Assembly: GCA_030839005.1 (NCBI GenBank)
Contig: JAUZEM010000050.1
Location: 1-30,582 of the forward strand
Reading direction: 5' to 3'
Source of the DNA: Actinomycetota bacterium
Lineage (GTDB): Bacteria > Actinomycetota > Acidimicrobiia > IMCC26256 > PALSA-610
Length of the DNA stretch: 30,582 bases
In this document: positions 15,108 to 20,090 of the stretch, in pieces
Layout: each line of letters opens with the position of its first letter
How positions within the stretch are numbered: position 1 is the first letter of the stretch
Notes under the pieces: model-generated
Seen by the model: only the letters and a program-made list of their open reading frames with translations
Database searches by the model: none
What the model was told of the DNA's origin: nothing
Translations under genes and position numbers: made by a program

Positions 15108-16373
15108 CTACGCGGGTGTGAACTCGACGGGGAGATGCTGGATCGTGGTGACGAGCGAGTTGGCGCCGCGCTCGGCGTCGACACCTTCGGGAACGTGGAT
15201 GTCCGGCAAACGCGTCAGCAGCTCTTCGAGCAGGATCCTGATCTCGGTGCGGGCGAGGTTCGCTCCGAGGCAGAAATGCGGTCCCGTGCCGAACGCGAGG
15301 TGCAGGTTGGGCGAGCGATCGACGTGGAACGCGTCGGGATCGTCGAACACGTCGGCGTCGCGATTCGCGCTCGGGTAGACGTTGAGCAGCACGTCGCCGG
15401 CCGCGAGGGCGCGCCCCCGGAGCTCGGTGTCGCGGGTGACCGTGCGCGAAAAGCTGATCACGGGTGACACGTAGCGCAGGATCTCCTCGGTCGCGCTGTT
15501 CACGAGACCGAGATCGTCCGCGAGCTTGGCGCGCTGGGCGGGGAAATTCGACAGCGCGAGCATCCCACCGGACAAGGCGTTGCGCGTCGTCTCGTTTCCC
15601 GCGACCAGCAGCAGCACCAAGAAGGCGAGCAGGTCGTCGGCGCCGAGACCGAGGCTCGCCTCGGCGAGGCCGCCCGCCTGCACGCGGGTGTGGAGCGCCT
15701 GCTCGTCGAACGAGATCTCGCCCGCGTCGGCCGACGAGAGCAGCACCGAGATGAGGTCGTCGCGCGGATGCGCGCGCCGGTCTTCGAGCAGACCGACGAG
15801 GTAGGTGATGTACTCGGCCCACGCCTCACCTGCGGCCGACTGGCGCGGATCGTCGGCCTCGGCGCCTTCACCGGCCATCATCGTGTCGGACCAGTGTGCG
15901 AGGCGCCCGCGGTCGTCGACCGCGAGGCCGAGCATCCCCGCGATCACGATCAGCGGCAGTTGCTTGGCGATGTCGTCGACGAAGTCGCACTCGCCTCGCC
16001 CGGCCACTCCGTCGACGAGCCCGCGTGCGACCTCGCGAATGTGATCTGTCAGCTGCGTGATCCTCGCGCCGGTGAACCCGCGGCTCACGAGGCGACGCTG
16101 CCGCGCGTGCTCGGGGTCGTCCATCGACACGATCGACAGCGCGTCGGCGCCACCGCCCTTCGGGCGCACACCCTTCGCGCTGCTGAACAGCTCGGGCTGA
16201 CGTTCGACGTACGACACGTCCTCGTATTTCGACACGACCCAGATCCCGTTGCGCTCGTCGCGGTGCACCGGATCGTTCTCACGCATCCAGCGGAAGAGGT
16301 CGTGCGCGACGCCCCGAACGTACAACGTCGGGTCGAGCGCATCCGATTCGTACGGCGCAGCGGGGGCAGTCAT
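15108..16373 (-). CDS. Cytochrome P450 (CYP125/CYP142-like steroid or lipid oxidase)
   Basis: MDDPEHARQRRLV, AGNETTRN (I-helix), EEILR (ExxR), FGTGPHFCLGANLAR heme motif. Confidence 0.95.
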   Translation of the reverse strand: MTAPAAPYESDALDPTLYVRGVAHDLFRWMRENDPVHRDERNGIWVVSKYEDVSYVERQPELFSSAKGVRPKGGGADALSIVSMDDPEHARQRRLVSRGFTGARITQLTDHIREVARGLVDGVAGRGECDFVDDIAKQLPLIVIAGMLGLAVDDRGRLAHWSDTMMAGEGAEADDPRQSAAGEAWAEYITYLVGLLEDRRAHPRDDLISVLLSSADAGEISFDEQALHTRVQAGGLAEASLGLGADDLLAFLVLLLVAGNETTRNALSGGMLALSNFPAQRAKLADDLGLVNSATEEILRYVSPVISFSRTVTRDTELRGRALAAGDVLLNVYPSANRDADVFDDPDAFHVDRSPNLHLAFGTGPHFCLGANLARTEIRILLEELLTRLPDIHVPEGVDAERGANSLVTTIQHLPVEFTPA

Positions 16374-16972
16374 TGTTCCTCCATAGGGGTGGGCATTTCA
16401 GGCGGCGAATCCGCAACCCGGGCGAAAACGTGCGCCAGCTCGCGGGCCCGCGCCGCGAGCGCTTCCCGGCGGCCGTCGGATTGCGGCAGGTGCTCCACGA
16501 GGACGCCGATGACCGCGTTGCGGATCGCCGCCACGACGGCCGCGTCGTACAGCGCGGGCGCGTCGGGGCACAGGCTGCGCAACCACCCTGCGAGCGCGTG
16601 CTCGAAGGCGTTGGCGGTCTCGAGCAGCGGCTGGTACACGTCGTCGTCGCCGTGGATCGCGTCGGCGATGAGGGTTCGCCAAAGATCCTCGTCGGCGGTC
16701 ATGCCGACGAAGAGATGGTCGAGCAGGGCGGCGAGACGATCCTCGACACTGCCGGCCAGGCCCTCGGGAAACGGTGAGGGCCGCAGGTCGGCCGTGCGCC
16801 GGTGCTCGATCGCCGCGCGGAGCAGGTCGCGCTTCGACGGGAAGTAGTGGTACAGCGTTGCCACGTTGAGACCGCACGCGGACGCGACCGCCCGCATGCT
16901 CGTGCCGTGCGCGCCGCCCCGCGCCATCAACGCGAGGGTGGCGTCGAGGATCCGATCGCGTCGTACCGCCAT
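16370..16972 (-). CDS. TetR/AcrR family regulator
   Basis: RDRILDATLALMARGGAHGTSMRAVASACGLNVATLYHYFPSKRDL; ATGA overlap with the P450. Confidence 0.92.
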   Translation of the reverse strand: MAVRRDRILDATLALMARGGAHGTSMRAVASACGLNVATLYHYFPSKRDLLRAAIEHRRTADLRPSPFPEGLAGSVEDRLAALLDHLFVGMTADEDLWRTLIADAIHGDDDVYQPLLETANAFEHALAGWLRSLCPDAPALYDAAVVAAIRNAVIGVLVEHLPQSDGRREALAARARELAHVFARVADSPPEMPTPMEEQ

Positions 16973-16988
16973 ACTCCGGGCACCCTAT

Positions 16989-17002
16989 CAAACGTTCGTT
17001 TG
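16989..17002. promoter_or_regulatory. Palindromic TetR operator candidate
   Basis: CAAACG-TT-CGTTTG with perfect arms, directly upstream of the TAGGGT -10 (minus strand, 16987-16982) of the TetR-P450 operon. Confidence 0.65.
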
Positions 17003-17050
17003 GGCCGCCCCCAGTGCCGGATGCTTCGGCGAGCCCCGGTCGGTTGCTCC

Positions 17051-17071
17051 TTATGCTCACCGCGAGTACAA
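17051..17071. promoter_or_regulatory. NrtR-box candidate overlapping the nrtR -10 element
   Basis: 21-bp imperfect palindrome TTATG-CT-CACCGCG-AG-TACAA containing TATGCT (17052-17057), 7 nt before the nrtR GTG. 21-bp palindromes with an N7 core are the known NrtR site architecture. Confidence 0.6.
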
Positions 17072-17078
17072 GGGAGGC

Positions 17079-17837
17079 GTGAGCAGCGAGGCCGAATTCC
17101 TCGAGCAGTACAAGCCGGCCCGGTACCCGCCCGTCGCGGTCACGGTCGACGTCGTGCTCCTCACGGTGCGCTCTGGGCGGCTTTCGGTGCTGCTCGTGCA
17201 ACGCCGCGGGCATCCGTTCCGCGGGCGCTGGGCGCTCCCCGGCGGGTTCGTCGAGCCCGACGACGACCTCGACGGCGCGGCGCGCCGCGAGCTCGAGGAG
17301 GAGACGGGTGTTCTCGTCTCGGGCGGCGGAGAGTCGGTCGCGCTGGGACACATCGAGCAGCTCCGCTCCTACGGCGCGCCGGATCGCGACCCGCGCATGC
17401 GGGTGGTGTCGGTCGCGTACGTCGGGTTCACCGCCCACAACGAACCGGCGGTCGCGGGCTCCGACGCGGCCGACGTTCGGCTCTGGGCGATCGACGACCT
17501 CGCGATCCCCGGCTTCGGGAGCGACGACGGAGTACCTCTCGCCTTCGATCACGCGCAGATCATCGCCGACGGCATCGAGCGCTCCCGCGCCAAGCTCGAG
17601 TACACGACGCTCGCGACGGATTTCCTCGACGAGCCGTTCACACTCGGTGAGCTTCGCCGCGTCTACGAGGCCGTATGGGGCGAGACGCTCCACGAGGGGA
17701 ACTTCCGGCGCAAGGTGCTGTCGACGCCGGGTTTCGTGGAACCGACCGGCAGCACCGCGCCGACCGACGGGCGTCCGGCGGCGCTGTACCGCCGGGGTGC
17801 CGCGACGCGCCTCCACCCGCCGATCCTCCGACCGTGA
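17079..17837 (+). CDS. nrtR: NrtR-family regulator (Nudix plus winged-helix)
   Basis: VTVDVVLL, WALPGGFV...AARRELEEETGV Nudix box, EQLRSYGAPDRDPRMRVVSVAY, LAFDHAQII, wHTH FTLGELRRVYE...NFRRKVL...GRPAALY. Confidence 0.9.
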   Translation: MSSEAEFLEQYKPARYPPVAVTVDVVLLTVRSGRLSVLLVQRRGHPFRGRWALPGGFVEPDDDLDGAARRELEEETGVLVSGGGESVALGHIEQLRSYGAPDRDPRMRVVSVAYVGFTAHNEPAVAGSDAADVRLWAIDDLAIPGFGSDDGVPLAFDHAQIIADGIERSRAKLEYTTLATDFLDEPFTLGELRRVYEAVWGETLHEGNFRRKVLSTPGFVEPTGSTAPTDGRPAALYRRGAATRLHPPILRP

Positions 17838-18730
17838 TCAAGCGAGTCGTGACCGGCGTATATCCCGGCTCCTTCGATCCCTAGACGGTCGCGCATCTCG
17901 CGATCGCCGAGGCGGCCGTGCGCGCGGGGGACATCGACCGCATCGATCTCGCGCTCTCGAACGTCGCGCTGGGCAAGGAACGCGGCGCACATTCGAGCGT
18001 CGAGGCGCGCGCTGCCGCGATCCGGCGCGCGGCGCGGACCCGCCCGTGGCTCGGCGTCGCGGTCACCGACGCGCAACTGATCGCCGACATCGCGTCGGGC
18101 TACGACGTCGTCGTGATGGGCGCCGACAAGTGGACACAGGTACGCGATCCGCAGTGGTACGGCGGCGACCCGACCGCTCGCGACAGTGCGCTCGCCGCGC
18201 TCCCGCGCGTCCTGGTCGCGCGCCGACCCGGCTTCGAGGTCGTGGGCGCGGAGGCGCTCGACGTCGATCCCGAGCTCGCGCACGTCTCGTCGACACGCGC
18301 CCGTTCCGGCGAGCATCATCTCGTCGTGCCCGACGCGCGGCGGCGCCTGCTCGTCGACGGCAACAACGTGGTCGGCAGCCGCCCCGACGGTTGGTGGCGC
18401 GACCGCCCGGGCGCGGCCCGCCGGCTCGTCGCCGAGCTCGACGCGTTCGTTGCGCGCACCGGCGACCAGGTGATGGTCGTGTTCGACGGCCGGCCGGTGC
18501 CGGGCCTGGCCGCAGGCAGACACGAGGGAGTACACGTCGCCTACGCGACGCGCGCGGGTCGCAACGCGGCAGACGATCGCATCGTCGAGGAGATCGCACG
18601 CGACCACGATCCGTCGTCGCTCACGGTCGTCACGTCGGATCGCGAGCTCGCGCAACGGGCGCGCGAGCTGGGGGCTCAGGTCGAGGGTGCGGGCGCGCTC
18701 ACTCGCGAGCTGGGATCGGAGCGCCCGTGA
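17834..18730 (+). pseudogene. NadD/CoaD-like (HIGH-superfamily) nucleotidyltransferase fused to a YacP-like NYN/PIN ribonuclease; in-frame TAG at codon 17 (nonsense allele or sequence error)
   Basis: GTG 17834 overlaps the nrtR TGA. Reads GVYPGSFDP-[TAG 17882-17884]-TVAHLAIAEAA...VVMGADKW...HVSSTRAR, then in frame RRLLVDGNNVVGSRPDGWW...VVFDG...NAADDRIV...VVTSDRELA. The supplied ORFs 17675-17884 and 17918-18730 are the two halves. Confidence 0.78.
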
Positions 18731-19241
18731 CGTCGTCGTCGCGCTCGACCCGAAACGCGTTCAAGGCCATCGACACCAAGTGGTACTGGCCCACCGTGAA
18801 CACGAGGTCGAGCAGACCCTTTACGTCGTAGCGCGACACGAGCGCGGCGTATGTGGAATCGGACAAAGTCTGCTCGTTGTGCAGCTCGTCGGCCGCGCGC
18901 AACAGTGCCGCATCGGCCGCGGACCAGCCGTCGGCGTCCGGACCTTCGGCGACGCGCGCGATCTCGTCGTCACTGATGCCGATCCCGCGCGCGATCGCCA
19001 CGTGCTGACCCCACTCGTACGGCGCGCGGCAGTTCCAGCCCGTGCGCAGGACGAGCAGCTCGCGATCGCGGGCCGGCAGCGTGCTCTTGGCGAGCACATG
19101 GTTCCCGAACACGAGCCACCGCTTCATGAGCTTGGGATGATGAGCAATGGTGGCGAAGACGTTCAGCGTGCGGTCGCCCAGCAACGCGCGCGTCTCGTCG
19201 TCCCACTCTTCGCGCGGCAGCGGCTGCAGGCGAGGTTCCAT
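18699..19241 (-). CDS. Carboxymuconolactone decarboxylase/AhpD-like family protein
   Basis: LNVFATIAHHP, LPARDRELLVLRTGWNCRAPYEWGQHV, LLRAADEL, LVFTVGQYHLVSM; ATG 19241. Overlaps the convergent NYN end by 32 bp. Confidence 0.88.
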   Translation of the reverse strand: MEPRLQPLPREEWDDETRALLGDRTLNVFATIAHHPKLMKRWLVFGNHVLAKSTLPARDRELLVLRTGWNCRAPYEWGQHVAIARGIGISDDEIARVAEGPDADGWSAADAALLRAADELHNEQTLSDSTYAALVSRYDVKGLLDLVFTVGQYHLVSMALNAFRVERDDDVTGAPIPARE

Positions 19242-19265
19242 GGGGCCAGAGCGTAGGCTGCGCCG

Positions 19266-20090
19266 ATGCCTCGCGACCTTCGCGACGACACGATCCTCAC
19301 CGCCGATCCGGACCGGCCCGGCCGGTTCCGCGGGAACCTCCCCGACGCCTGGAAGGTCGTGTACGTCTTCGGCGGCGTCTCGATGTACGCGGCGTTGCGC
19401 GCGATGCAACAGCAGCTCGGACGCGCGGATCTCTCGCTCGTGACCGCGAACGCGATCTTCGTCGCGCCGGTTCCCCCGGGTCCGATCACCATCGACGTCG
19501 ACGTGTTGCGCGACGGCCGGCGGGCCTCACAGGTCGCAGCCGACCTGTGCATTCCCGGCGTTGACGGCCCCGCGTTGCGAGTGCACGGTGTGTTCGGCGC
19601 CGCGCACGACATCGAGCTGTCCCATCAGGAGGTGCGGTTCCCGGAGGTCCCGGGCCCGGCCGACGTCGAGATCCCGCCCGAGCGGCCGAACCCCTTCGGC
19701 CGGATCAACTTCCACGAACAGACCGAATGGCGACCCGTCAGCCCGCTCGACGATCCCGGCAAGGGCCACTTCCTGTCGTGGGTGCGGCTGCGGGAGACCG
19801 AGCCCGACCTTCTCAGCCTCGCCGTTCACGGTGATGTGCTGGGTCCCGCGGTCGGACGCGCGCTCGGACCGCCCGACGACTCTGCTCAAGTGTTCATGGT
19901 GCTGTCACTCGAGATCGGCATCCGCTTCGTGCGCGCGCCGGTGACGCCGTGGGTTCTCCAGGAGATCGAGGCCTGGCACGTCGGCGACGGCTACGCGACG
20001 GGTCCGGCCCGCTTGTGGGACGAGCACGGCCGCCTCTGCGCGATTGCGACGCAAACGGCGCACCTGCGCCGGCGCGCGGGCGGGGCATAG
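19266..20090 (+). CDS. Acyl-CoA thioesterase (TesB-like double hot-dog)
   Basis: W....VFGG, RDGRRASQV, LSLEIGIRF, GDGYATGPARLWDEHGRLCAIATQ. Confidence 0.88.
   Translation: MPRDLRDDTILTADPDRPGRFRGNLPDAWKVVYVFGGVSMYAALRAMQQQLGRADLSLVTANAIFVAPVPPGPITIDVDVLRDGRRASQVAADLCIPGVDGPALRVHGVFGAAHDIELSHQEVRFPEVPGPADVEIPPERPNPFGRINFHEQTEWRPVSPLDDPGKGHFLSWVRLRETEPDLLSLAVHGDVLGPAVGRALGPPDDSAQVFMVLSLEIGIRFVRAPVTPWVLQEIEAWHVGDGYATGPARLWDEHGRLCAIATQTAHLRRRAGGA

What the first reader, a model, noticed from the sequence alone, without database searches (positions are those of the whole stretch)
17079..18730. NrtR-controlled gene fusing a NAD-type nucleotidyltransferase to an NYN/PIN ribonuclease
Seen: the gene coupled to nrtR (GTGA overlap) has an N-terminal HIGH-superfamily domain (GSFDP-x-TVAH, GADK, VSST; ~170 aa). 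It continues without stop or frameshift into a complete YacP-like NYN domain (from ~18341) with the acidic residues intact (DGNN, FDG, ADD, TSD). Established: NrtR binds ADP-ribose and normally controls NAD salvage genes (nadD/nadM, pncB, prs); YacP/Rae1-type NYN proteins are RNases. I know both domains as separate proteins but not this fusion. Inference: a single protein couples NMN/NaMN or RNA-end adenylylation to RNA cleavage under ADP-ribose control. Possible roles are NAD-cap turnover, re-capping of cleavage products, or a nucleotide-gated stress or abortive RNase.
Basis: partly seen in the sequence, partly recalled or inferred. Interest (0 to 1): 0.78.

Follow-up and report, generated by a model that had tools for sequence, protein, structure and literature searches.

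The report
NrtR-controlled NadD-like enzyme fused to RNase
A soil actinobacterium (class Acidimicrobiia) has a conserved but unstudied gene, sitting behind the NAD-sensing repressor NrtR, that joins an enzyme resembling the NAD-building adenylyltransferase NadD to a small Rae1/YacP-type RNA-cutting domain; this window's copy carries a stop codon at codon 17 that near-identical DNA from other soils lacks.

Summary
Window 17834-18730 (+) encodes a 298-codon protein with CTP_transf_like (residues 9-157) and NYN_YacP (172-294). Its GTG start overlaps the TGA stop of an NrtR gene (17079-17837).

The fusion is not a one-off. At least 120 homologues of 65-95% identity have both domains. The gene is present in 19 of 20 genomes of the same genus, and nrtR lies directly upstream in 11 of 11 loci read.

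The N-domain is a NadD-like paralogue, not the housekeeping NadD. Canonical nadD coexists with it in relatives, and in this MAG nadD falls in an assembly gap.

A conserved 21-bp palindrome lies before nrtR at 17051-17071. A similar site lies before nadA in five relatives. This puts the operon in an NAD regulon.

The order of assembly is visible in relatives: nrtR plus the transferase alone, a standalone mini-NYN gene, split adjacent pairs, and the fused form all exist.

The in-frame TAG (17882-17884) replaces a family-invariant Leu. Near-identical contigs from three other soil runs read TTG. It is therefore a private allele or an assembly error, not recoding.

Function is inferred only: an NaMN/NMN adenylyltransferase linked to a Rae1-like endoribonuclease. 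NAD-cap chemistry is untested.

This scan has met the same fusion before on other DNA.

The parts
17051..17071 (.). Candidate NrtR operator: a 21-bp imperfect palindrome, TTATGCTC-N5-GAGTACAA, 8 nt upstream of the nrtR start and running into the Shine-Dalgarno region.
   Evidence: It is conserved at the same position in most of the 11 upstream regions compared in the genus (three are shifted, rearranged or more diverged) while the flanks diverge. It is the only match in the own genome at 2 mismatches or fewer. It is found before nrtR in 5 of 5 more complete relatives, and a closely similar site lies about 220 nt upstream of nadA in those relatives.
17079..17837 (+). nrtR: a Nudix-related transcriptional regulator of 252 aa with a Nudix domain and an NrtR winged helix. 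The Nudix box is nearly intact (REUXEE kept, first Glu replaced by Asp).
   Evidence: Pfam NUDIX E 2.7e-22 and NrtR_WHD E 5.5e-17. NCBIfam NF050029 gives 135 bits, below its equivalog cut-off of 400. Identity to genus relatives is 90-98%. dN/dS is 0.10.
17834..18730 (+). Fusion gene of 298 codons plus stop. The GTG start overlaps the nrtR TGA stop.
   Evidence: Homologues of 290-320 aa carry both domains. AF2 model: pLDDT 88.7, pTM 0.82.
17882..17884 (+). In-frame TAG at codon 17 inside the (T/H)xxH nucleotide-binding motif.
   Evidence: Leu (rarely Phe or Pro) stands here in all aligned homologues. The nearest relatives have CCG TTG. Near-identical contigs of runs X1, X3 and X4 read T at 17883, giving CCC TTG. 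The X2 contig starts at 17884. No laid contig shows the A.
17858..18304 (+). NadD-like HIGH-family nucleotidyltransferase domain (residues 9-157). Motifs: PGSFDPxTVAH, K48, T78-D79, GADKW, W108-Y109, VSSTRAR.
   Evidence: Pfam. NCBIfam best partial hit is NadD TIGR00482, 37.7 bits against a cut-off of 112. Foldseek top hits are NadD 3dv2, 5deo and 1kaq, TM by target 0.66-0.70. hhalign against canonical NadD of relatives gives 97.3% probability over 141 columns, including the W and SSTxxR motifs. Against CoaD it aligns only over residues 4-97.
18347..18715 (+). Rae1/YacP-type NYN (PIN-like) nuclease domain (residues 172-294). Acidic residues D175, D218, D247/D248 and D269 are invariant. It lacks the C-terminal helical extension of Rae1.
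   Evidence: Pfam NYN_YacP matches profile positions 1-128 of 166. A family profile matches B. subtilis YacP 5mq8/5mq9 at E 1.7e-8. Foldseek to 5mq9 gives TM by target 0.62.
17918..17920 (+). In-frame GTG preceded by GAGG at a 5-nt spacing. It is a possible re-initiation start if the TAG is real, and would give a 270-aa product without the TxxH motif but with the NYN domain whole.
   Evidence: ORF 17918-18730 is listed and the sequence is. This is inference only.

Best explanation
What is shown
- This is a two-gene operon, nrtR followed by a single gene for a bifunctional protein.
- The operon is inherited vertically in one family of uncultured soil Acidimicrobiia.
- The N-terminal half of the protein is a divergent NadD-like adenylyltransferase. 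It is a paralogue that coexists with the housekeeping NadD.
- The C-terminal half is a minimal Rae1/YacP-type NYN nuclease with all acidic active-site residues.
- A conserved 21-bp palindrome precedes nrtR. A near-identical one precedes nadA in relatives.

What is inferred
- NrtR represses both units and releases them when ADP-ribose, the by-product of NAD consumption, accumulates.
- The N-domain then adds NaMN/NMN adenylyltransferase capacity, as NrtR-linked nadD genes are thought to do in Pseudomonas and cyanobacteria.
- The NYN domain cuts RNA, most plausibly mRNA in a translation-linked way like Rae1.
- RNA turnover or ribosome rescue is thereby switched on together with NAD resynthesis.
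- The fusion arose stepwise: first nrtR plus the transferase, then a standalone mini-NYN gene placed downstream, then fusion.

This window's copy
- It carries a TTG-to-TAG change at codon 17.
- This is a private null or hypomorphic allele (about 0.6) or an assembly error (about 0.35). It is not recoding.
For: Anatomy and conservation
- Domains are identified.
- At least 120 two-domain homologues were found, and an ESM Atlas cluster of 81 members has the same architecture.
- The gene is in 19 of 20 genus genomes and in 31 of 36 genomes of the family.
- nrtR is directly upstream in 11 of 11 genus loci, 4 of 4 GTDB fusion loci and 8 further family loci.
- Catalytic-motif columns are invariant in both domains.
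- dN/dS is 0.22-0.36.

Paralogue status
- Canonical NadD (TIGR00482 above its cut-off) is found in 50 of 61 relatives, including fusion carriers.
- In the own MAG, the nadD neighbourhood is cut by two contig ends exactly around nadD.

NadD-likeness
- hhalign to canonical NadD aligns 141 columns, including the aromatic W/Y and SSTxxR motifs.
- hhalign to CoaD aligns only the N-terminal 89 columns.

Regulon
- Operator conservation is shown and its uniqueness in the own genome.
- The second site before NadA is shown.
- nrtR-nadD and nrtR<>nadABC linkage is established (Rodionov 2008, PMC2330246).

Stepwise origin
- nrtR plus the transferase without NYN occurs in G029 and G032.
- NYN-only genes occur in other families.
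- 4HBT-NT-NYN without nrtR occurs in G025 and G035.
- Split overlapping pairs occur.

Rae1 biology
- Rae1 cleaves mRNA at stalled or collided ribosomes (PMC12407103, PMC13622287).

The TAG
Against: - No enzymatic, expression or binding data exist for any family member.
- The N-domain fails the NadD equivalog threshold (37.7 against 112 bits). It has a PPAT-like TxxH with Ala in place of Gly, so its substrate is not settled.
- The NYN domain lacks Rae1's C-terminal basic helices and has GNN instead of the family's GYN motif. Ribosome-dependent action is therefore not assured.
- The NT-NYN pair also occurs without nrtR.
- Standalone NT or NYN genes sit in unrelated contexts.
- In the own genome no nadA operator was found: the contig ends about 250 nt upstream of nadA and that stretch differs from relatives.
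- The operator-regulator link is comparative, not experimental.
Confidence: 0.6

Rival explanations
1. RNA-end chemistry. The transferase domain acts on RNA 5' ends rather than on free mononucleotides, either joining NMN to pppA-RNA to make an NAD cap or running the reverse reaction. The NYN domain makes or removes the RNA ends it works on.
For: The only support is the physical fusion of a pyridine-nucleotide-type adenylyltransferase fold to an RNase fold, and their conservation as a unit. Chemically, the NMNAT reaction with an ATP-terminated RNA would give an NAD cap. That last point is general knowledge, not tested here.
Against: - The domain is small and has no added RNA-binding element. 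Its motifs match those that hold free ATP and NaMN in NadD.
- The same transferase family occurs alone behind nrtR without any RNase.
- The family is also fused to GNAT or alpha/beta hydrolase domains.
- No paper links NrtR with NYN.
Confidence: 0.1
2. Stress or defence effector. ADP-ribose released during phage-triggered or stress-triggered NAD breakdown lifts NrtR repression. The NYN RNase then shuts down translation (dormancy or abortive infection), while the transferase restores NAD or gates the RNase.
For: Nudix-HTH (NrtR-like) regulators are predicted to control ADPr-centred conflict systems (PMC9503650). PIN/NYN nucleases are common toxins. dN/dS of the NYN half is higher (up to 0.62) than that of nrtR (0.10).
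Against: - The gene is single-copy at one syntenic chromosomal locus in 19 of 20 genus genomes. Its neighbours are metabolic genes: P450, TetR, thioesterase, CMD.
- The operator is shared with nadA, a housekeeping biosynthetic gene.
- No antitoxin-like partner or mobile-element signs were seen.
- PADLOC was not searched.
Confidence: 0.12
3. The N-domain is not a pyridine-nucleotide enzyme. It adenylylates another phosphate-bearing substrate, such as 4'-phosphopantetheine or an ADP-ribose-related compound, or it serves only as a nucleotide-binding sensor for the RNase.
For: - The motif is the PPAT-type GSFDPxTxxH.
- hhalign to CoaD is almost as strong as to NadD over the N-terminal half: 97.0% probability and E 1.2e-10, against 97.3% and 2.6e-11.
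- The PDB profile hits to PPAT and NadD are of similar strength.
- In nrtR-less lineages the pair follows acyl-CoA-thioesterase-like genes.
Against: - The substrate-binding C-terminal half aligns only with NadD, including the aromatic pair and SSTxxR.
- The best structural matches are NadD.
- A bona fide CoaD is present in the genome.
- NrtR linkage and the nadA co-operator point to NAD.
Confidence: 0.25
4. For this window only: the TAG is a consensus or assembly error and the organism's gene is intact.
For: - No contig of four public runs shows A at 17883, and three show T.
- The run whose contigs are otherwise identical to the window (X2) has low depth (about 3-7) and a contig break exactly at the site.
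- The rest of the frame is undamaged, and dN/dS is like that of relatives.
Against: Short-read assemblies rarely fix a wrong base. A contig break at the site fits a real two-allele bubble equally well. Because canonical nadD exists in the lineage, loss of this paralogue need not be lethal.
Confidence: 0.35

Closest known systems
NrtR-linked nadD genes (Pseudomonas nrtR-nadD; cyanobacterial pncB-nadD-nrtR-nadE), Rodionov et al. 2008, PMC2330246
   Same: An NrtR gene sits in one operon with a NadD-type adenylyltransferase. A palindromic 21-bp operator is present. The operator is also found before de novo NAD genes, as with nrtR<>nadABC in Actinobacteria.
   Different: Here the transferase is a divergent paralogue, well below the NadD equivalog score. 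It carries a C-terminal NYN nuclease that no described NrtR regulon contains.
NadD, bacterial nicotinate-mononucleotide adenylyltransferase (e.g. B. anthracis 3dv2/3e27, M. abscessus 5deo, B. subtilis 1kaq)
   Same: The fold matches (TM by target 0.66-0.70). The nucleotide-binding motif, the K, T-D, GxD, aromatic W/Y and SSTxxR motifs all align.
   Different: The domain has TVAH instead of HxGH and is about 20 residues shorter. It scores 37.7 bits against a cut-off of 112 for TIGR00482. It coexists with a canonical NadD.
Rae1/YacP of Bacillus subtilis (PDB 5mq8, 5mq9), a ribosome-associated endoribonuclease
   Same: The NYN_YacP fold and all acidic active-site positions are shared. The Pfam hit is above the cut-off and the profile E-value to YacP is 1.7e-8.
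   Different: It lacks the roughly 40-50 C-terminal residues of Rae1. It has GNN instead of GYN after the first Asp. It is fused to an enzyme domain. It is not in the cysS-mrnC-rlmB-yacP operon context.
NadM-Nudix and NadR multifunctional NAD enzymes
   Same: These are precedents for NMN adenylyltransferase modules being joined to, or neighbouring, Nudix/ADP-ribose-handling and regulatory modules.
   Different: They belong to different transferase subfamilies, and no nuclease domain is involved.

Membership tests
NadD (NaMN adenylyltransferase, TIGR00482 equivalog) | Score above the curated equivalog cut-off (112.45 bits) | tested here: not met
   The score is 37.7 bits, covering residues 10-81 only. 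Canonical NadD scoring 120-145 bits exists elsewhere in relatives.
NadD (NaMN adenylyltransferase, TIGR00482 equivalog) | HIGH-type (H/T)xGH motif plus C-terminal ISSTxxR motif | tested here: met
   PGSFDP-L-TVAH and VSSTRAR are invariant or nearly invariant in the family. Gly is replaced by Ala, and the first His by Thr.
NadD (NaMN adenylyltransferase, TIGR00482 equivalog) | Pyridine-ring-binding aromatic residue after the GxD motif, and the T-x-D region | tested here: inconclusive
   hhalign places W108-Y109 on the invariant Trp of canonical NadD and T78-D79 on SYTxDT. The assignment of those NadD residues to NaMN binding comes from my recollection of the NadD structures and was not re-derived here.
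NadD (NaMN adenylyltransferase, TIGR00482 equivalog) | NaMN/NMN adenylyltransferase activity | not testable with these tools
   This needs an enzyme assay.
CoaD/PPAT (TIGR01510) | Score above cut-off (103.3 bits) and full-length alignment | tested here: not met
   The score is 27.9 bits. hhalign to the genome's own CoaD family covers only residues 4-97. A true CoaD is present on another contig.
NYN_YacP (PF05991) / Rae1 | Pfam gathering score | tested here: met
   The score is 50.8 bits against 24.6.
NYN_YacP (PF05991) / Rae1 | At least four conserved Asp residues of the active site | tested here: met
   D175, D218, D247/D248 and D269 are invariant in 20-24 sequences and align to YacP.
NYN_YacP (PF05991) / Rae1 | 'GYN' motif after the first Asp, and two C-terminal basic helices (PMC5499597) | tested here: not met
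   The motif is DGNN. The Pfam match stops at profile position 128 of 166, and only about 4 residues follow.
NYN_YacP (PF05991) / Rae1 | Translation-dependent mRNA cleavage on the ribosome | not testable with these tools
   This needs biochemical or in vivo assays.
NrtR (Nudix-related transcriptional regulator) | N-terminal Nudix-like domain plus C-terminal NrtR winged helix | tested here: met
   NUDIX scores 79.6 bits and NrtR_WHD 62.1 bits, both above their cut-offs.
NrtR (Nudix-related transcriptional regulator) | Palindromic, roughly 21-bp operator before its own operon and NAD genes | tested here: met
   The site at 17051-17071 is conserved in the genus. A similar site lies before nadA in 5 relatives. 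In the own genome only the nrtR site was found.
NrtR (Nudix-related transcriptional regulator) | ADP-ribose-responsive DNA binding | not testable with these tools
   This needs EMSA with and without ADP-ribose. The NCBIfam equivalog NF050029 scores 135 against a cut-off of 400.

The most novel reading that the evidence does not exclude
The fusion physically couples pyridine-nucleotide adenylylation to RNA cleavage. Either the RNase is gated by the NAD/ATP state sensed in the transferase site, tying mRNA decay or ribosome rescue to NAD supply. Or the transferase acts on the 5' ends of RNA (NAD capping or decapping) that the nuclease produces or consumes.
Probability: 0.12. Interest if true: 0.8.

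Novelty: new variant of a known kind. Interest (0 to 1): 0.5.

Why it matters
NrtR regulons have so far contained only NAD synthesis, salvage, transport, pentose and ADP-ribose-handling genes. A ribonuclease as a conserved regulon member, covalently joined to a NadD paralogue, would be a first genomic hint that some bacteria link RNA turnover or ribosome rescue to NAD status.

The family offers natural controls for experiments, because four forms exist side by side: transferase alone behind nrtR, standalone NYN, split pair and fused protein. It also gives a minimal Rae1-type nuclease lacking the C-terminal extension, which is useful for working out what that extension does.

If the transferase turns out to be an ordinary NadD2 and the RNase acts independently, the finding reduces to a lineage-specific gene fusion of modest interest.

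Tried and rejected
- Complex prediction of the two halves as separate chains (alignment A2, residues 1-168 against 169-298) gave no verdict: score 0.00, controls not run. It says nothing either way.
- Literature searches found nothing. No paper contains both NrtR and NYN. 'nrtX' returned only unrelated papers. The PIN-superfamily classification lists no transferase fusion for NYN_YacP. The Rae1 distribution paper PMC6152456 is not held. The supplements of Rodionov 2008 are not held, so I could not find out what nrtX and nrtY are.
- A crude GC-frame gene caller for neighbour analysis was unreliable. I replaced it with targeted tblastn and Pfam on selected ORFs.
- Neighbours of standalone NT or NYN genes gave no consistent theme. 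They included RtcB, HNH, CN_hydrolase, GDPD, alpha/beta hydrolase, SRPBCC/AHSA1 (twice), ABC-F and DUF179.
- The consensus promoter and terminator scan found nothing useful in 16900-18900.
- Recoding of TAG was rejected. A relative ends the same gene with TAG, and near-identical populations have TTG.
- The idea that the fusion is the genome's only NadD was rejected. Canonical nadD is present in relatives, and in this MAG its position falls between two contig ends.
- The coordinates of the AF2 model were not available to scripts, so the inter-domain interface could not be inspected.
- The PADLOC and PHROG libraries were not searched.
Full report
**1. What is in the sequence**

The frame starting with GTG at 17834 runs to TGA at 18728-18730. 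It encodes 298 codons, with one in-frame TAG at 17882-17884 (codon 17). Its start overlaps the stop of the upstream gene (GTGA).

The upstream gene (17079-17837, 252 aa) has a NUDIX domain and the NrtR winged helix. It is therefore an NrtR-family regulator. Its Nudix box is almost intact (RELEEETG kept, first Glu replaced by Asp; read).

The downstream protein has two Pfam domains, both above their cut-offs:
- CTP_transf_like at residues 9-157;
- NYN_YacP at residues 172-294.

**2. The fusion is conserved**

- A search of the 5.8-billion-protein collection returned 1411 hits. The best 120 are 270-322 aa long and 65-95% identical. All but two carry both Pfam domains, and some are auto-named 'NYN domain-containing protein' or 'nicotinate-nucleotide adenylyltransferase'.
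- The ESM Atlas holds an 81-member cluster with this architecture.
- Among 60 relatives' genomes, the gene is found in 19 of 20 genomes of the same genus and 31 of 36 of the same family.
- In the exhaustive search of 50%-identity representatives, only about four full-length two-domain representatives appear. One of them is a 554-aa form with a Nudix domain in front.
- Most hits in that search are standalone transferases of about 175 aa or standalone NYN proteins of about 130 aa.
- The fused form is therefore one fairly narrow clade inside two much wider single-domain families.

**3. Gene order and how the fusion was assembled**

- nrtR lies directly upstream in 11 of 11 genus loci, in the four GTDB fusion loci L024-L027, all from Acidimicrobiia MAGs, and in eight further family genomes.
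- Two family genomes (G029, G032) have nrtR followed by the transferase alone. The next gene there is a DUF3817 membrane protein.
- Other families of the order have only the mini-NYN gene, at 50-64% identity, with unrelated neighbours.
- Two genomes (G025, G035) and two metagenome contigs have the transferase-NYN pair directly behind acyl-CoA-thioesterase-like (4HBT) genes, without nrtR.
- In the two metagenome contigs the pair is split into two genes overlapping by 19-28 nt.
- Where nrtR is present, the same 4HBT gene sits about 2 kb further upstream.
- The simplest reading is stepwise: nrtR plus transferase first, then NYN added downstream and fused, with occasional secondary loss of nrtR. 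No tree was built to test this.
- Apparent splits in some few-contig, low-completeness assemblies (G001, G013, G014, G018, G020) look like frameshift errors.

**4. What the N-domain is**

- NCBIfam gives only partial, sub-threshold hits: NadD TIGR00482 at 37.7 bits against a cut-off of 112, and CoaD at 27.9 bits.
- The AF2 model is confident (pLDDT 88.7, pTM 0.82).
- Its best PDB neighbours are NadD structures (3dv2, 3e27, 5deo, 1kaq; TM by target 0.66-0.70), followed by PPAT.
- A profile of 20 fused and standalone family members aligns to canonical NadD from relatives over 141 columns (probability 97.3%, E 2.6e-11). The TxxH, K, T-D, GxD, aromatic W/Y and SSTxxR motifs are all in register.
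- The same profile aligns to the genome's own CoaD family only over the N-terminal 89 columns.
- The domain is therefore a distinct NadD-like family, not an equivalog of NadD or CoaD.

It is not the housekeeping NadD:
- TIGR00482 above its cut-off is found in 50 of 61 relatives, including most fusion carriers.
- It is not found in the own MAG, which has 617 contigs and is 86% complete.
- Aligning the nadD neighbourhood of relative G006 to the MAG shows two contigs (C80, C381) ending on either side of the nadD position.
- The absence is therefore an assembly gap.

**5. What the C-domain is**

- A family profile hits B. subtilis YacP/Rae1 (5mq8, 5mq9) at E 1.7e-8. D175, D218, D247/248 and D269 align to its acidic residues.
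- Foldseek agrees.
- Two differences from Rae1 stand out. The GYN motif reads GNN, and the C-terminal helices with basic residues that characterise NYN_YacP (PMC5499597) are missing, because the protein ends shortly after the core.
- Rae1 is now described as an endonuclease acting on mRNA at stalled or collided ribosomes. Rae1 homologues are reported in about 45% of Actinobacteria (PMC12407103, PMC13622287).
- Whether this minimal form works on ribosomes is unknown.

**6. Regulation**

- Upstream of nrtR, in otherwise diverging intergenic DNA, most of the 11 upstream regions compared in the genus keep a 21-bp imperfect palindrome. Three are shifted, rearranged or more diverged. In the window it is TTATGCTC-N5-GAGTACAA at 17051-17071, just before the Shine-Dalgarno sequence.
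- It is the only match in the own genome at up to two mismatches.
- It is found before nrtR in five more complete relatives.
- One extra hit in G010 led to nadA.
- Inspection then showed a conserved site, TTCCACTC-N5-GAGTGTTA, about 220 nt upstream of the NadA match in all five relatives and in G010. It matches one nrtR-type operator at 17 of 21 positions.
- This mirrors the known actinobacterial nrtR<>nadABC arrangement and the known nrtR-nadD linkages (PMC2330246).
- It places the fusion gene in an NAD regulon.
- In the own genome the nadA contig ends about 250 nt upstream of the gene, that stretch differs from relatives, and no site was found.
- A second perfect palindrome (CAAACGTTCGTTTG, 16989-17002) sits next to the divergent TetR gene. 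It is absent where TetR is absent (G003), so it is probably the TetR operator.

**7. The TAG**

- All aligned homologues have Leu (rarely Phe or Pro) at codon 17.
- The nearest relatives read CCG TTG where the window reads CCC TAG.
- Logan contigs of four soil runs were laid on the region:
  - a 550-nt contig of X1, with only three differences from the window, reads T at 17883 (CCC TTG);
  - contigs of X3 and X4 also read T there;
  - X2, whose contigs are otherwise identical to the window and which may be the source sample, has a contig starting exactly at 17884 and no cover at the site.
- No contig supports the A.
- A relative terminates the same gene with TAG, so recoding is not in play.
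- dN/dS of the window copy against relatives is 0.22-0.34, like relative-against-relative values.
- The TAG is therefore very recent or not real.
- If it is real, a GAGG-N5-GTG at 17918 could restart translation and give an RNase-bearing product without a working transferase site. This is inference only.
- The 95%-identical relative G015 is an unpublished genome. The statements that rest on it are its TTG codon and two dN/dS pairs. The same conclusions follow from G006 and the public runs.

**8. Mechanism**

Shown:
- the architecture;
- conservation of the catalytic motifs;
- the operon structure;
- the operator pattern;
- the paralogue status.

Inferred:
- ADP-ribose-responsive derepression;
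- NaMN/NMN adenylyltransferase activity;
- endoribonuclease activity;
- any coupling between the two activities.

The evidence leans towards an NAD-homeostasis accessory module rather than a defence or toxin module. The points in favour are the fixed chromosomal locus, vertical inheritance, the co-operator with nadA, and metabolic neighbours. The NAD-cap proposals remain untested speculation. The complex-prediction job gave no verdict.

**9. Novelty**

No paper in the searchable library links NrtR with a NYN nuclease. The PIN-superfamily survey does not list this architecture. The architecture is nevertheless present and auto-annotated in public collections.

This scan had already noted the same fusion on three other genomes, with two follow-ups reaching similar readings.
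- the operator pair (nrtR and nadA);
- the stepwise-assembly series;
- the proof that canonical nadD is only missing through an assembly gap;
- the population evidence on the TAG.

I rate it a new variant of a known kind (an NrtR-NadD operon with a fused Rae1-type RNase), interest 0.5.

Noticed in passing
Own genome contig C313 (locus L118:2575-2725, minus strand); same element in L114, L116, L117, L119, L120: A leader of about 110-150 nt between the NrtR-like site and the nadA start codon is almost invariant across the genus. It contains two AACCCCG boxes and a hairpin that covers the Shine-Dalgarno sequence. No Rfam family matches, even at E up to 10. The sequences are too alike to test covariation. 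It is a candidate cis-regulatory RNA of nadA.
   Followed up: partly
window 16989-17002: A perfect 14-bp palindrome, CAAACGTTCGTTTG, sits 17 nt upstream of the divergent TetR-family gene (16370-16972, minus strand). It is conserved in the nine compared relatives that have that TetR gene in view, imperfectly in one. It is absent in G003, which lacks the gene. It is probably the TetR operator for the TetR-P450 unit.
   Followed up: partly
L014 (G002), upstream of nrtR: A fourfold tandem repeat of a unit of about 16 nt (CACTCGAGAATTGGGA) is inserted in the nrtR promoter/operator region of one relative.
   Followed up: no
P0133 (554 aa, metagenome protein): One representative joins a Nudix domain, the transferase and the NYN domain in a single 554-aa frame. 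This is either a triple fusion or a frameshift at the overlapping stop/start.
   Followed up: no
L041:4546-5444 (Mycolicibacterium sp.) and L134:2433-3459 (G049): In two distant lineages the standalone mini-NYN gene directly follows an SRPBCC/AHSA1-like gene (4-nt overlap in L041). This may be a separate conserved pair.
   Followed up: no
window 18699-19409 (minus strand): The convergent downstream ORF looks AhpD/CMD-like by eye; it was not scanned here. A gene with a CMD (carboxymuconolactone decarboxylase, PF02627) Pfam hit on record holds the same convergent position in a metagenome contig where the transferase and NYN are split and nrtR is absent. The right-hand synteny may therefore be older than the nrtR linkage.
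   Followed up: no
L105 (metagenome contig): A standalone transferase of this family lies divergent to an RtcB RNA ligase gene. This is a single case.
   Followed up: no
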